Assembly (NCBI GenBank): GCA_030265395.1
Contig: JARFYF010000060.1
Span: forward strand, 20,496,502 to 20,560,501
Length of the DNA stretch: 64,000 bases
Direction of reading: 5' to 3'
From: Rhina ancylostomus
Lineage: Eukaryota
Made by a program: the position numbers. Of the stretch, positions 48,001-54,000 are shown in pieces; the first letter of the stretch is position 1; every line of letters starts with the position of its first letter.

Positions 48001-51000
48001 CCTGTTACTTAACCAACCATTTGTTAATGGTTACCATAGAATTGTCAACATTGGCAAATTGTCTGCAGAAGATTTTCAGTGATAAACTAGCACTAGGTGT
48101 GTTCTATCACCTGGCTCAGAACGGGAGGCTAGTGGCATTATTGGATTTTTTTTTGGAGTGCAGGGTATGCAAATTTTCTGTTACTTTTTGTTCTGACACC
48201 ATATACACATTCTTTTCCCAGGCCTTTAGTTTTGGTGCTGATCTATTTGAATGCATGCAGATCTTGATGATCCTATTCTTTCTTGATCTTCTATTCTCTC
48301 TTGTGTACATGTATACCCTGTTTCTCAAAGCTTTTCTCCCTCTCTCCTCACTTTTGCTTTCTCGTGTTTTTGCTCTTGCGTTCGTCCTCTTGCTCATGCA
48401 TTGAATTCACCTCCTTCCTCCTCACCCTCCCATCCCTCTTTGCCTCTCCCCCTCCTTTTCCTTTTCAAAGCGCAGCAGATTCCAGGATGTTGGGTAACTG
48501 CTAAGGCCGTATGCATGTGGAATTCAGATTGTGACCTGTGGTAAGGGAAAATGTTGCTGTGATTTCCTCCCTGCTGGAGTTGGTTGGAGGTTGATCTGCC
48601 ATGGGATAGTGGAGAAGGGAAAGTCCAACCCACCTTTTGTAGTTGTTGAATGACATCAAGGACAAAACCCTAAGTGAGCCCCTGCCCTTTCTCATTGTTG
48701 AAGAAAGTGGATGGGGTGGGACCAATAATATTCTAATACCTTCACGATCTTACTGGGAAGTGAACAAGTTCAAAGGGCTGAATGGCCTACCTTGCTCCTT
48801 GTGCTTCATTCACCTCCTAACTTTTTCTGCTCTGAGAACAATCCCAACAATGCCAGAAAGCATCCGATATCCATTGAAATGGACCCAGCACAAATTTGCA
48901 CAACAGGAACATGTGAAAGAATAAACGGCATAGACAGAGGTGGGAGAGTGTTCCCCTTTCCCTCCTCCTACACCTCGCCCCAGCCTTCCCCGTAATCAGC
49001 TAAATTGTGTAAAAACCCTTTAGCTTCCTGTGTCAAGAGCCTTTAACACACTTGCAAGACCCTGATCCTATTAAACCATGATGCCGAATGTACCCCTCAA
49101 TCTGACCCTATCACTTTGCACAGTGAAGCCCTTTATTTAACACTGGCGAGTTCACCTGATTAAGCTCCTGAAAGTCGAGAGCTATCATTATTTTCAGCCT
49201 TAAAATGGGGGAGGAAGCAAATGGGATGGATTTGTCGAATTAACATTGGGAAATGTTTGCACATTTTTTGGTGTAATTGACTGCCACTGCTTGGAATATA
49301 TAGCTGATAATAAATGATGGGAATGTTTGCTTATGCCCTGTTATATCTTCATTCTTCCACAAGTGAGCCCAACTATTTTTACAGTGCTGCTTATCTGCTT
49401 GCTTTGTTCATGCACTTAACGTATTTTATTTTTGTGTGTGTTTTGACATTTTACAAGCTTCAAGGAATGGAGGAGTCAGCCAGTTGAACATTTTATTGCA
49501 AGATTAGGGACTAATAAAATGGGAAGGGGATGGTTATCAATGTGCAAACAGGTAATATTCAATGATTCACTGCCCTCGGAGGCAGTTCCTGATATCAGTG
49601 AGGGGTCAATATTTCTCCATGGATACTGATGACAAGCCTGCTGTCAGGTTACTGACTTATTGTGGGTTCTACTCCACCAGTTACCAGGGCAAGGGAATCC
49701 TATCTAGGATGAATTGGTCTCTACTCCAAGGTTTTTGAATGACTGGATGTTTGTTCCCAGAATCCCTATTCATCTTCAATCTTTTTTATTTCTTTTCGCC
49801 TTTGGGACTATTTCTGGTCAGATCAGCACGTGTTTCCTCTGAGTGACTCGTCTTGAGTAGGGGACGATGAGCTGCCCTCTTGAACCTCTGTAGTCCGTGT
49901 CATCACCCTACACTAGCTATTAGATAGGGAGCTGAGGGATTTTGATCCAGCAACTATGAAGGAACATGGATGTATCTTAGAGTAGGAGATCTTGCAGTTG
50001 GCAGTGTTCGTGTTTACCTGCTAACCTTGTTCTTCTGGGTGGAGAGGTAGTACCTTTTGAGGTGTTTTATGAAAGATCACTGGGCAGGATTCAACAGTGC
50101 ACCTTCTCGTGGGGTGTGTGTTTCAAGAGAATACTGGGGGAATAACATAAAAGTAAATGAAGTTTACCTGAGCTAAATCCTATAACCCAACATGCTTTAT
50201 AATGTTAATGTTAGGAACATGAAAAGTTGGAACAGGAGATGGTTACTTAGTCCAAAACTTTGTTTTGCATGCCATCCCTATGGATCATTTCATTACAACG
50301 GTGCATCAAGGTGGTACAAGGGAAAAAATAACAGAATAGCCTCCTGAGGAAGTAGAGGCGCTGGTGAGCTTTCTTGGCCGTGGCGTCTACGTGGTTGGAC
50401 CANNNNNNNNNNNNNNNNNNNNNNNNNNNNNNNNNNNNNNNNNNNNNNNNNNNNNNNNNNNNNNNNNNNNNNNNNNNNNNNNNNNNNNNNNNNNNNNNNN
50501 NNGGGGCAGCCGCGTCCGGCCGGCCTCCCCCTGCCTGCCCGGCGCCGGGGGCAGCCCTACCCGTGCGGCGAGTGCGGCAAGAGCTTCAGCTACCCGTCCA
50601 AGCTGGAGATCCACCGGCGCACCCACACCGGCGAGCGGCCCTTCGTCTGCGCCGCCTGCGGCAAGGGCTTCACCGAGTCGTCCAGCCTGCTGACCCACCA
50701 GCGGGTCCACACCGGCGAGTGGCTCTTCCTCTGCCCCGCCTGCGGCAAGGGCTTCACCAAGCCCTCGCACCTGCTCACCCACCAGCGGGTGCACACCGGC
50801 GAGCGGCCCTTCGTCTGCCCGCTCTGCGGCAAGGGCTTCACCCAGTCCTCCAACCTGCTCACCCACCAGCGGGTCCACACGGAGGAGCGGCCCTTCTCCT
50901 GCCCGCTCTGCGGCAAGCGCTTCAAGAGCGCCGAGGAGCTGAAGAAGCACCGGCAGGTCCACACTGACGAGCGCCCGTTCCGCTGCTCGGTCTGCGGCAA

Positions 51001-54000
51001 GGGCTTCCGCATGTCCTCGCACCTGCTCACCCACCAGCTCATCCACACCGGCGAGCGGCCCTTCACCTGCCCGCTCTGCGGCAAGGGCTTCACCCAGTCC
51101 TCCAACCTGCTTTCCCACCGGCGCATCCACACCGGCGAGCGGCCCTTCGCCTGCGCCCGCTGCGGCAAGAGCTTCCGCATGTCCGCCCACCTCCTGGCCC
51201 ACCAGCGGGTGCACACTGGCGAGCGGCCCTTCGCCTGCGCCCGCTGCGGCAAGGGCTTCACCCGCTCCTCCTACCTGCTGCGGCACCAGCGGGTGCACCT
51301 GCTCGACCCGGCGGCGATGGGACACAGGCAGGACTGAGGCGGGCGGGGTGGGGGGTGCGCGGGAGGGCTGGGTCTCGGCTCGAATAAAGGGGCTTTTGTG
51401 TTAAGCAGACGGTGTCCCACGGCCCTTGGTGTCCAGGCGCTGGGACCCGTCGGGCGCCTGCCGCGGGGCGGGTGGCGTGCCGGGCTGCTTGGGGACGTGG
51501 GCGGGGTGAGGAGGAGACCGTTTGGCCTGTCACGCATCCTGCTCGGCTGTGGAACGAGGCGTGGATGCAGAGTCAGAAGTCAAAGTCGGGCTTTTGTCAC
51601 CGGCGCAAGTCCGTGTCTGCACGGGTGCAGTGACAAACTCTCCCACAGCAGCATCGCAGGCCCACAGAGAGGGTCTGAGGAAGGGTTTTTGTGGGTTGGG
51701 ATCTGGGACACACTGACTGAGGGTNNNNNNNNNNCCCCCCCCCCCCCCGCCAGGCTGGGACAGCACCTAGATCAAGGAGCACTTGAATCGCCAAGATGTA
51801 CAGGGTTGTGGACCAAGTGCTGGTAGAAAGAACTCATACTGAGGGTACAGCCACAAGAGACCACAGGTTGCTGTTGGTTTATTATTGTCACTTGTACTGA
51901 AGTACAGTGGAAAACTTGTCTTGCAGTTTTTGTACAGATCAATTCATGGCACAGTGCATTGAGGTAGTACAGGTAATAACAATAACAGAATACAGAGTGA
52001 AGTGTCACAGCTCCAGAGGAAGTGGAGTGCAGGTAGACAATAAGGTGCAAGGTAGATCGTGAGGTCAGAGTCCATCTCATTGAGGGAACCGTTTAATAGT
52101 CTTATCACAGCGGGGTAGAAGCTGTCGTTGAGCCTGGTGGTACGTGCCCTCAGGCTCCTGTATCTTCTGCCTGATGGGAGAGGAGAGAAGAGACCCAGGT
52201 GGGTGGGGTCATTGATTATGCCAGCACTTGTTTCACTAAGGCAGCGAGAGGTAAAGTCCGTGGAAGAGAGGCTGGTGTCCATGATGCGCTGGACTGTGTC
52301 CACAACTCTCTGCAGTTTATTGCGGTCCTGGGCACAGCTGTTGCCGTACCGAGCGTGATGCACCCAGATAGTGGATGTATGGATATGCATCCATACTTGT
52401 ATCTATGGTGCATTGATAAAAGTCGGTGAGTGTCAAAGAGGACATACTGAATTTCTTTATCCTCTTGAGGAAGAAGAGGCGCTGGTGAGCTTTCTTGGCC
52501 GTGGCGTCTACGTGGTTGGACCAGGATAGGCTTATTGGTGATGCTCAGCTCTGGGAACTTGAAGCTTTCAACCCTCTCAACCTCAGCACCATTGATGTAA
52601 ACAGGAACGTGTGCACCGCTCCCCTTCCTGAAAGTCAATGACCAGCTCTTTTGGTTTGCTGACATTGAGGGGAAGGTTATTGTCATGATACCATGTTACT
52701 AGGCTCTCTATCTCCTTCCTGTACATCAAATTTTATCTGCTGTTTAATAAGAATATGACTGACCTGATTGCAAGCTCACCTCTGCATTCCTAGCTGCCTT
52801 AATCTTTTGTCCCTTTAATTATCAAGTATCCATTAGTCACGGCCTTAAAAATATTCAAGGACTCTGCTTCCACCACCCTTTGAGGAAGGGAGTTCCGAAG
52901 ATTCACAACCTTCAGAAACAAATTCAGCTCATCTCTTAAATGTGTGACATCTCTCTCTAGCTTTTCCTAAAGCACCCTCTCGACTTCCACACTATCTATA
53001 CCTCTCAGGGTCTTACTTATTTCAATTAAGTCACTTCTCACAGTTCTAAACTCCAGTGGATTCAAGCCTAGCTTGTCCAGCATTTTCTCATGAGACCATC
53101 TGCCCAGTATTTAAGATAGAGGGATATGTGCAAGGAAGGGGTTAGATAGTCTTAGGTGAGGTTTAAAGGTCGACACAACATTGTGGGCCAAAGGGCCTGT
53201 ATTGTGCTGTACTGTTCTATGTTCTAAAACTTCTTTGGATGCATTAAGGTCCTTCCATTCATGTAATGAAAGACAAAACCATCTAAACTGGGGCGAAAAG
53301 TAGTTAATAAGCTACAGGGCATCTCAGTGCATTTTACAGCCTTTGAGATGTGGTCACTTGCACATTATGGGAAACCTGGTAAGTGGGTTTTGCATGGCAA
53401 GATCCCACAACCAACAATCCAGGAAAGCGACTGGGCGAGAGTAGTTTTCAGGAAAACTAATCCTTGTGGGGAAAATCGGCACTCTCGGGAGAGGAAATTA
53501 CTTGAAGGTTATGTGTGGTGGGGGGAGGAGTGTGACAAAAGAGAATTGGAAAAGATTGCAAGATTTGTGGTTCAGGGGTGAAAAAATTCAAGCAATTTGG
53601 CGTCGTGCCCTGTGCAAACACTTCCTCTTGAACTGTCTCCCCGTCTGAAGCAATGGGCTTGGCTTTGCACCCAAGATGCCGGCTGTCACTCGAATCTTTC
53701 TGCAGGTTACGGCACACCCAGGCTGCAGTGGAAAGGCTGCTTCACCAGCAACTTCTGTGTTTTTCGATGACAGTGCTAGATTTGAGAGTGGTTCAGCTCT
53801 GTGTTTTGAGATGTGGTGCATTTCTTGGAAAGGGGAGGCCAACCCTTGAGGTTTCCTCTGCGTCGCTGGGCTGAGTGAAGGGAGTTTCTTTTGCGGCCAC
53901 CTCCCAATGCCCACGACCTGTCACTCCCTCCCTGCACCTAACCACCTCAGCCCCATCCCTCCCTACCACCAACCACCATCCCATAAACCACCCCTCCCAC

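What the first reader, a model, noticed from the sequence alone, without database searches (positions are those of the whole stretch)
50503..51724. Intact GC-rich 9-finger ZNF gene inside a ZBTB16 intron: nested gene or misplaced contig
Seen: an uninterrupted 9-finger C2H2 ORF, near-total G/C at third positions, abundant CpG and its own AATAAA, on the same strand as the ZBTB16 exon, in an otherwise AT-rich, CpG-poor intron. Established: I know of no nested ZNF gene in mammalian ZBTB16. Inference: its composition is foreign to this locus, so it is either a lineage-specific translocated or nested ZNF gene, or a contig from a GC-rich ZNF cluster joined here in error. It is bounded by gaps on both sides (50403-50502, 51725-51734).
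Basis: partly seen in the sequence, partly recalled or inferred. Interest (0 to 1): 0.72.

Follow-up and report, generated by a model that had tools for sequence, protein, structure and literature searches.

The report
Orphan zinc-finger contig, probably misplaced
A 1.2 kb GC-rich piece carrying the tail end of an ordinary shark/ray-type zinc-finger gene sits between two assembly gaps in a ZBTB16 intron, and it is more likely a wrongly placed scrap of a fragmented draft assembly than a true gene-within-a-gene.

Summary
The sequence facts hold. There is a 277-codon open frame with nine complete C2H2 fingers, GC3 0.98 and CpG o/e 0.76. It has one AATAAA 46 nt after the stop and lies on the same strand as a confirmed ZBTB16 exon 22.5 kb upstream.

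"Intact gene" is not shown. The frame is open at the contig's first base, has no start codon before finger 1, and runs into the 100-N gap.

The protein is chondrichthyan in type, not human and not foreign contamination. Eleven of 12 shark/ray proteins rank 1-11 of 239 hits by per-finger identity. No close parent copy was seen (best 66%).

The GC/CpG-rich composition continues 336 nt past the poly(A) signal with no A-tail, so it is not a retrocopy. The whole contig looks like a piece of a GC-rich region.

No assembled contig crosses either compositional boundary, and both flanks are copies of one interspersed repeat. The left contig's last 49 nt recur exactly 2.1 kb downstream, past the insert. 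The window has 25 gaps in 64 kb.

My reading is an ordinary ZNF gene 3' end on an orphan contig whose placement is unsupported and probably wrong (about 0.6). A real insertion stays possible (about 0.35). Reads or a long-read assembly would settle it.

The parts
27865..27951 (+). ZBTB16 coding exon (one C2H2 finger, ...AFVCDQCGAQFSKEDALESHRQTHTG), with AG acceptor and GT donor.
   Evidence: Finger found by regex. Splice sites read. Searched alone as a 44-aa window stretch: of the 78 named hits, 66 are called ZBTB16 or ZBT16 and 12 are hypothetical, unnamed or uncharacterized proteins, 75-100% identity over 66-100% of the query for all 117 hits.
50249..50402 (-). End of the left contig: an internally deleted copy of an interspersed LINE-like repeat, cut by the gap.
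   Evidence: 50249-50338 aligns to 51906-51992 at 79% (67/85), score 35 against a shuffle maximum of 17. 50337-50402 matches 52458-52523 at 95.5%, 13677-13742 at 90.9% and 34631-34673 at 93%.
50354..50402 (+). Last 49 nt of the left contig, repeated exactly at 52475-52523.
   Evidence: the DNA search found 2 matches with 0 mismatches, 0 expected.
50403..50502 (.). 100-N assembly gap. The contig ends on either side do not overlap.
50504..51337 (+). 5'-open reading frame of 277 codons plus TGA stop: the 3' part of a poly-zinc-finger gene.
50558..51298 (+). Array of nine C2H2 fingers with an 84-nt period. Five of eight linkers are TGERP.
   Evidence: period 84, 8.0 copies, 77% matches.
51383..51388 (+). 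AATAAA poly(A) signal 46 nt after the stop, followed by a T/GT-rich stretch.
51389..51724 (+). GC-rich, CpG-rich flank beyond the poly(A) signal (GC 0.643, CpG o/e 0.73), with no A-tail.
   Evidence: longest A run in the contig is 3.
51725..51734 (.). 10-N gap (minimum-size class) joining the ZNF contig to the next contig.
51735..51748 (+). C14 homopolymer at the start of the right contig.
51868..52695 (-). 3' part of a LINE-like repeat copy with normal composition (GC about 0.45-0.50).
   Evidence: blastn to other copies in the window. Minus-strand ORFs at 51944-52402 and 52216-52695. The family copy at 13530-13889 matches PF09004, E 4.1e-12. Composition.
52475..52523 (+). Second copy of the 49-nt exact repeat, inside the right contig.

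Best explanation
The contig 50503-51724 is the genuine 3' end of an ordinary cartilaginous-fish poly-C2H2 zinc-finger gene. It carries the last nine fingers, the stop, a short 3' UTR, the poly(A) signal and 336 nt of downstream flank. It comes from a GC-rich, CpG-rich part of the same genome, such as a short chromosome or a chromosome end shaped by GC-biased gene conversion.

Short-read assembly left it as a 1.2 kb orphan. The scaffolder dropped it between two contigs of the ZBTB16 intron that both end or begin in copies of one interspersed repeat. The nested arrangement is therefore most likely a scaffolding artefact, not biology.

Shown: the gene fragment, its lineage affinity, its composition, and the absence of any contig crossing either boundary.

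Inferred: the home region and the misplacement.
For: 1. Both compositional breaks coincide with gaps. GC falls from 0.696 to 0.416 on the left and to 0.447 on the right. CpG o/e falls from 0.76 to 0.24 and 0.32. It is the only outlier among 26 contigs.
2. GC and CpG richness continue for 336 nt past AATAAA with no A-run. The whole contig, not just a transcript, is GC-rich.
3. blastn of the contig against the rest of the window gave 4 hits, all with E >= 1.7.
4. The ORF is cut at the contig start and has no start codon.
5. The assembly has 25 N-runs in 64 kb.
6. At 6 of the 13 100-N gaps the contig ends overlap directly by 10-45 nt, and at a seventh with an offset. At none of the 12 other gaps do they overlap. 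At the 50403 gap they do not overlap either. Instead the left contig's last 49 nt recur exactly at 52475-52523, beyond the ZNF contig.
7. Both flanks are copies of one repeat family, the usual cause of ambiguous read-pair links (inference).
8. The protein is native in type. Eleven of 12 shark/ray proteins rank 1-11 of 239 by mean best-finger identity (0.695 against 0.565). The query also shares their TGERP and CGKGF signatures.
9. In sharks, shorter chromosomes and chromosome ends have higher GC, which the authors attribute to biased gene conversion (passages of PMC10620051).
10. Short-read assemblies break at GC-rich sequence and can carry misplaced pieces (passages of PMC5632298).
Against: - A scaffolder did place the contig here. 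The 10-N join implies read pairs linking it to 51735 onward, whose first 134 nt match nothing else in the window.
- The right contig runs unbroken from the repeat into the intron.
- A test for a chimeric join at the 49-mer found nothing. Identity to another repeat copy is 0.846 (236/279) left and 0.838 (67/80) right of it, and the left part is not GC-shifted.
- The 66-nt repeat stretch is conserved among all copies (91-95.5%). An exact 49-mer between two separate copies is therefore not very improbable.
- GC-rich sequence is expected to be flanked by gaps in a short-read assembly even when correctly placed.
- No parent copy elsewhere was found.
Confidence: 0.6

Rival explanations
1. Real placement, working gene. 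A lineage-specific poly-ZNF gene lies nested in the ZBTB16 intron on the sense strand. Its 5' exons and promoter are hidden in the 100-N gap. It was brought there by a recent DNA-level duplication from a GC-rich region.
For: - All nine fingers keep their zinc ligands, and the frame is open for 277 codons.
- There is a proper stop plus an AATAAA that chance would rarely give (112 of 20000 shuffles).
- The scaffolder's 10-N link joins it to partly unique sequence.
- The protein is native in type.
Against: - No start codon, promoter or 5' exon is visible.
- No contig spans either junction.
- GC3 0.978 and CpG o/e 0.76 are not what long residence in a 41% GC, CpG-poor intron would leave (inference), so it would have to be very recent.
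- The left gap would have to hold both the rest of the left repeat copy and the gene's 5' part.
Confidence: 0.15
2. Real placement, dead fragment. A recent segmental duplication or insertion copied only the 3' part of a GC-rich ZNF gene, with its downstream flank, into the intron. It is a 5'-truncated gene piece without function.
For: - The flank beyond the poly(A) signal came along, and there is no A-tail. This fits a DNA-level copy, not a retrocopy.
- The ORF starts abruptly.
- One linker reads TGEWL where five others read TGERP. That could be early decay.
Against: The junction evidence is missing, as for the nested gene. No frameshift or stop has accumulated. No donor copy was found.
Confidence: 0.2
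3. Contamination. The contig comes from another organism with GC-rich ZNF genes (bird, reptile, mammal or human) and was swept into the assembly.
For: Extreme GC3 is familiar from bird and reptile microchromosome genes (recalled). Many bird, turtle and mammal ZNFs appear among the hits.
Against: - By identity the shark/ray proteins lead: 61-66% against 58% or less for all others among 120 hits.
- They take ranks 1-11 of 239 by per-finger identity.
- Primate ZNFs reach only about 50%.
- The mammal-type TGEKP linker is absent: 0 of 8 in the query, against 0.36 on average in non-elasmobranch hits.
Confidence: 0.03
4. Processed retrogene inserted into the intron.
For: The finger array has no intron, and the contig has its own poly(A) signal.
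Against: There is no A-tract after the signal (longest A run 3). The GC/CpG-rich composition continues 336 nt beyond it. Finger arrays are single-exon in their parent genes anyway (established knowledge).
Confidence: 0.02

Closest known systems
Predicted poly-C2H2 zinc-finger proteins of sharks and rays: 'zinc finger protein 239-like' (Carcharodon carcharias), 'uncharacterized protein' (Hemitrygon akajei), 'ZNF697-like' (Mobula hypostoma), 'ZNF850-like/721-like' (Heterodontus francisci)
   Same: Tandem C2H2 fingers with TGERPF linkers and CGKGF knuckles. The array includes the ...[18 protein letters not shown] finger type. These are the highest-identity relatives: 59-66% over most of the query, and 0.65-0.74 mean best-finger identity.
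   Different: None is a near-identical parent. This ORF is shifted towards GC-encoded residues, with G+A+R+P at 0.29 against 0.246 on average in those relatives. Its DNA has GC3 0.978. Their DNA could not be examined. The N-terminal part is missing here.
GC-rich sequence that short-read assemblies break, lose or misplace (zebra finch and hummingbird examples in PMC5632298)
   Same: About 70% GC sequence bounded by gaps, some of an arbitrary 100 N, in a short-read scaffold. The paper documents misplaced small pieces next to such gaps (passages).
   Different: Those cases were proven with long reads. Here no reads are available, so misplacement is inferred.
Nested (intronic) genes of vertebrates
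   Same: On the scaffold as written, a sense-strand gene end with its own poly(A) signal lies between exons of a host gene.
   Different: Contiguity with the host intron is not shown on either side. No start or promoter is seen. Conservation in relatives could not be tested. A full-text search for 'ZBTB16' with 'nested gene' and 'intron' found 0 papers.

Membership tests
Kruppel-type poly-C2H2 zinc-finger protein | Tandem C-x2-C-x12-H-x3-H units above the Pfam zf-C2H2 threshold. | tested here: met
   Nine units. PF00096 scores 200.6 bits against a cutoff of 25.2, in 9 stretches.
Kruppel-type poly-C2H2 zinc-finger protein | Conserved TGE(K/R)P-type linkers between fingers. | tested here: met
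   Five of 8 linkers are TGERP. The other three are TGEWL, TEERP and TDERP.
Kruppel-type poly-C2H2 zinc-finger protein | Complete gene with a start codon and an N-terminal region or effector domain. | tested here: not met
   The frame is open at the contig's first base. There is no in-frame ATG before finger 6. The 5' part, if it exists, lies beyond the gap.
Elasmobranch ZNF lineage (native origin) | Nearest relatives are chondrichthyan proteins. | tested here: met
   Eleven of 12 chondrichthyan hits rank 1-11 of 239. Four of 4 lead the 120 near-length hits by percent identity.
Nested intronic gene | Continuous sequence from the host intron into the inner gene on both sides. | tested here: not met
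   Both junctions are N-runs, and no contig crosses the compositional boundary. This shows missing evidence, not a disproof.
Nested intronic gene | The same arrangement in related species or in an independent assembly. | not testable with these tools
Processed retrogene | Poly(A) tail after the signal, with parental composition ending there. | tested here: not met
   The longest A run is 3. The 336 nt after AATAAA are still at GC 0.643 and CpG o/e 0.73.
Scaffolding misjoin or misplaced contig | The anomaly is bounded exactly by gaps, and the piece is unrelated to its neighbours. | tested here: met
Scaffolding misjoin or misplaced contig | The neighbouring contigs fit each other when the piece is skipped. 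| tested here: inconclusive
   The left contig's last 49 nt equal 52475-52523 exactly. However, this lies in a repeat stretch that is 91-95.5% alike among copies. Sequence left of it differs, and no chimera signal was found.
Scaffolding misjoin or misplaced contig | Read pairs, long reads, depth or Hi-C contradict the join. | not testable with these tools
   No reads are available.

The most novel reading that the evidence does not exclude
The placement is real. A cartilaginous fish has recently acquired, by a DNA-level duplication from a GC-rich chromosome region, a sense-strand poly-ZNF gene or gene end inside the long intron that follows the third-finger exon of ZBTB16. It still carries the GC3 0.98 and high-CpG signature of its former home. 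That would give a dated natural experiment on how fast a GC-rich gene decays in an AT-rich, CpG-poor intron. It might also give ZBTB16 an alternative 3' end.
Probability: 0.3. Interest if true: 0.35.

Novelty: new member of a known kind. Interest (0 to 1): 0.15.

Why it matters
Its main value is as a caution. Taken at face value, the scaffold would produce a false nested gene, or a false ZBTB16-ZNF fusion model, in annotation of this draft genome.

The fragment itself is one more member of the large shark/ray ZNF family. Its extreme GC3 is a small pointer to strongly GC-biased regions in a cartilaginous-fish genome that short reads assemble poorly.

If the placement proved real, it would be a modestly interesting case of a recently moved GC-rich gene in an AT-rich intron.

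Tried and rejected
- **Parent copy.** Two protein searches, near length and longer, found no relative above 66% identity. Only the best 120 of 8000 scored candidates are listed, ranked by summed bits. Many-finger proteins dominate that ranking, so a moderately long near-identical parent could be hidden.
- **PDB search with the 30-aa ZBTB16 exon**. It gave only generic C2H2 matches (Aart, PRDM9, ZNF568 and others) and was uninformative for gene identity.
- **Repeat or intron sequence shared between the contig and the window**. Nothing significant was found.
- **Chimeric right contig at the 49-mer**. Identity is equal on both sides and there is no GC shift, so this is neither supported nor excluded.
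- **An eye impression** that the contig's 3' part holds a GC-shifted copy of the neighbouring repeat. blastn did not bear it out, so I dropped it.
- **Pfam on six flanking ORFs**. Only one matched, PF09004 for a repeat-derived ORF.
- **Retrogene and contamination readings.** Both rejected.
- **Literature.** A search for 'ZBTB16' with 'nested gene' and 'intron' found 0 papers.

Structure prediction, complex prediction, the ESM Atlas, Rfam and the representative-protein search were not used. They could not bear on placement.
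Full report
**What is there**

The window is a very fragmented scaffold, with 25 N-runs in 64 kb. Thirteen are exactly 100 N. Twelve have other sizes (10, 10, 10, 11, 102, 229, 252, 263, 316, 467, 790, 868). The finding is one contig, 50503-51724 (1222 nt), between a 100-N gap on the left and a 10-N gap on the right.

The contig holds one long frame, 50504-51334, followed by TGA at 51335-51337. Its 277 codons encode nine complete C-x2-C-x12-H-x3-H fingers. Pfam zf-C2H2 matches nine stretches, E 3.6e-61. 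The array has an 84-nt period with 77% matches between units, as in ordinary ZNF arrays.

**Composition**

- Codon-position GC is 0.632, 0.538 and 0.978. Only 6 of 277 codons end in A or T.
- The contig has GC 0.696 and CpG o/e 0.76.
- The sequence before it has 0.41 and 0.23, and the sequence after 52525 has 0.43 and 0.26.
- Among sliding 1222-nt stretches elsewhere in the window, GC never exceeds 0.488.
- Of the 26 contigs it is the only compositional outlier.
- One AATAAA lies at 51383-51388, 46 nt after the stop. Only 112 of 20000 shuffles of the 3' part contain one.

**What is not there**

The frame is open from the first base of the contig. It has no in-frame ATG before finger 1; the only ones are at 51011, 51179 and 51317. 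The contig thus shows the 3' end of a gene, not an intact gene.

An open frame is also weak evidence in 70% GC DNA. Composition alone gives P about 0.0055 for 277 open codons, and the antisense strand carries a 337-aa open frame. The intact zinc ligands are what argue for coding sequence.

**Host gene**

A single further finger lies at 27885-27947 on the + strand, in an exon 27865-27951 with AG and GT borders.

I searched this exon alone. The tool needs at least 40 aa, so I used the 44-aa window stretch 27840-27971 with the intron flanks as they stand. The search returned 117 proteins. Of the 78 named ones, 66 are called ZBTB16 or ZBT16 and 12 are hypothetical, unnamed or uncharacterized. Identity across all 117 is 75-100%. 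A PDB search with the exon gave only generic fingers.

No later ZBTB16 finger exon is in the window. 'Inside an intron' therefore rests on the scaffold order, plus recalled knowledge that ZBTB16 continues with more finger exons. The ZNF contig starts 22,551 nt after the exon, on the same strand.

**Whose gene is it**

I do not take the contig for human.

- Among the 120 near-length hits, the four shark/ray proteins (Hemitrygon x2, Carcharodon, Mobula) have the highest percent identity, 61-66%. All others are at 58% or less.
- Among the 120 longer hits, the six Heterodontus proteins reach 57-63% and Mustelus 55%, while Pristiophorus reaches only 43%.
- I also ran a per-finger comparison that ignores array order. 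Eleven of the 12 chondrichthyan proteins take ranks 1-11 of 239; the twelfth ranks 45. Mean best-finger identity is 0.695 against 0.565, and the best non-chondrichthyan protein reaches 0.643.
- The query shares their TGERP linkers (5 of 8) and CGKGF knuckles (6 of 9). It has no TGEKP linker, which averages 0.36 in the other hits.

The piece is therefore native to a cartilaginous fish, and contamination is rejected.

No near-identical parent was seen. Only the best 120 of 8000 scored candidates are listed, and many-finger proteins dominate that ranking. A parent could be hidden, above all among longer proteins.

**Is it a retrocopy?**

No. After AATAAA there is no A-run (the longest in the contig is 3). 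The next 336 nt stay at GC 0.643 and CpG o/e 0.73. The whole contig, gene plus downstream flank, is a piece of a GC-rich, CpG-rich region.

The protein is also shifted towards GC-encoded residues. G+A+R+P is 0.29, against 0.246 in the shark/ray relatives and 0.216 in the others. I read this as long residence under a GC-biasing regime; that is inference.

In sharks, shorter chromosomes and chromosome ends have higher GC. The authors ascribe this to GC-biased gene conversion (abstract and passages of PMC10620051; its supplementary tables were not seen).

**Is the placement real?**

*Points against:*
- Both compositional breaks fall exactly in gaps, and no contig crosses either.
- The contig has no significant similarity to anything else in the window. 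There were 4 blastn hits, all with E >= 1.7.
- The left contig ends in an internally deleted copy of a LINE-like repeat. Positions 50249-50338 match 51906-51992 at 79%, and 50337-50402 match 52458-52523 at 95.5%.
- The right contig begins with a C14 run and 120 nt of other sequence. It then carries a fuller copy of the same repeat, 51868-52695 on the minus strand. A family copy matches PF09004.
- The last 49 nt of the left contig recur exactly at 52475-52523 and nowhere else.
- At 6 of the 13 100-N gaps the two contig ends overlap directly (10, 45, 18, 11, 45 and 40 nt), and at a seventh with an offset. At none of the 12 other gaps do they overlap. The 100-N class therefore often marks contigs that really abut.
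- At the 50403 gap there is no such overlap. The left contig's overlap partner lies 2.1 kb further on, past the ZNF contig. This is the pattern expected if the left contig really continues at 52524.

*Points for:*
- The 10-N join implies read-pair links to sequence that is partly unique.
- The right contig is unbroken across the 49-mer.
- The 66-nt repeat stretch is 91-95.5% alike among all copies, so a shared exact 49-mer is not very improbable.
- A test for a chimeric join found equal identity to another copy on both sides (0.846 and 0.838) and no GC shift.
- GC-rich sequence tends to be flanked by gaps in short-read assemblies even where it is correctly placed (passages of PMC5632298).

**Verdict**

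The fragment is an ordinary chondrichthyan ZNF gene 3' end.

| Reading | Probability |
|---|---|
| Orphan contig from a GC-rich region, placed here without support and probably wrongly | about 0.6 |
| Real recent DNA-level insertion, dead fragment | 0.2 |
| Real recent DNA-level insertion, working nested gene | 0.15 |
| Contamination and retrogene together | about 0.05 |

Synteny and junction continuity therefore stayed unchecked. The N stretches were left as they are; only their flanks were read. A full-text search for ZBTB16 with 'nested gene' and 'intron' found 0 papers.

Interest is low. The main value is to stop a false nested-gene or fusion annotation.

Noticed in passing
window gaps at 2254, 11359, 12535, 41171, 45405, 56082, 61912: At 6 of the 13 100-N gaps the contig ends on either side overlap directly by 10-45 nt (0-1 mismatch), and at 11359 with an offset. 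None of the 12 gaps of other sizes shows this. The 100-N class therefore often marks contigs that abut or overlap, not true missing sequence. The gaps were not filled.
   Followed up: yes
window 13530-14017 (+), 34626-34731 (+), 50249-50402 (-), 51868-52695 (-): Four copies or fragments of one LINE-like repeat family, with ORFs such as ...SWSNHVDA.AKK.HQ.LYFLRRL.... One copy matches Pfam PF09004 (E 4.1e-12). The copy at 50249-50402 lacks about 465 nt relative to the one at 51868-52695. By eye the deletion ends lie at similar short motifs (CTCC.GAGGAAG).
   Followed up: partly
window 26941-27166 (+), 45102-45692 (+), 60514-60885 (+): Three ORFs share a motif of the type ...RFTRMLPG...LGLFSLE.RR.RGDLIE.YK.... 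They look like relics of a second retroelement family. Two of them (45102-45404 and 60514-60885) were scanned against Pfam and matched nothing. 26941-27166 was not scanned.
   Followed up: partly
window 51735-51748 and 57615-57640: Contigs begin or end in long C or G homopolymers: C14 after the 10-N gap, and a run of 17 G close to the contig end (followed by CAGG) before the 316-N gap. This is the usual place for short-read assemblies to break.
   Followed up: no
window 33752-34731: This 980-nt contig has CpG o/e 0.56 at GC 0.44. It is the second highest CpG o/e in the window after the ZNF contig, and it lies between two sized gaps. It was not examined further.
   Followed up: no
window 50714-50725: The linker after finger 2 reads TGEWLF where five of the eight linkers read TGERPF. 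By eye the codons differ by two C-to-T changes, one of them at a CpG. This may be early decay or just variation.
   Followed up: no
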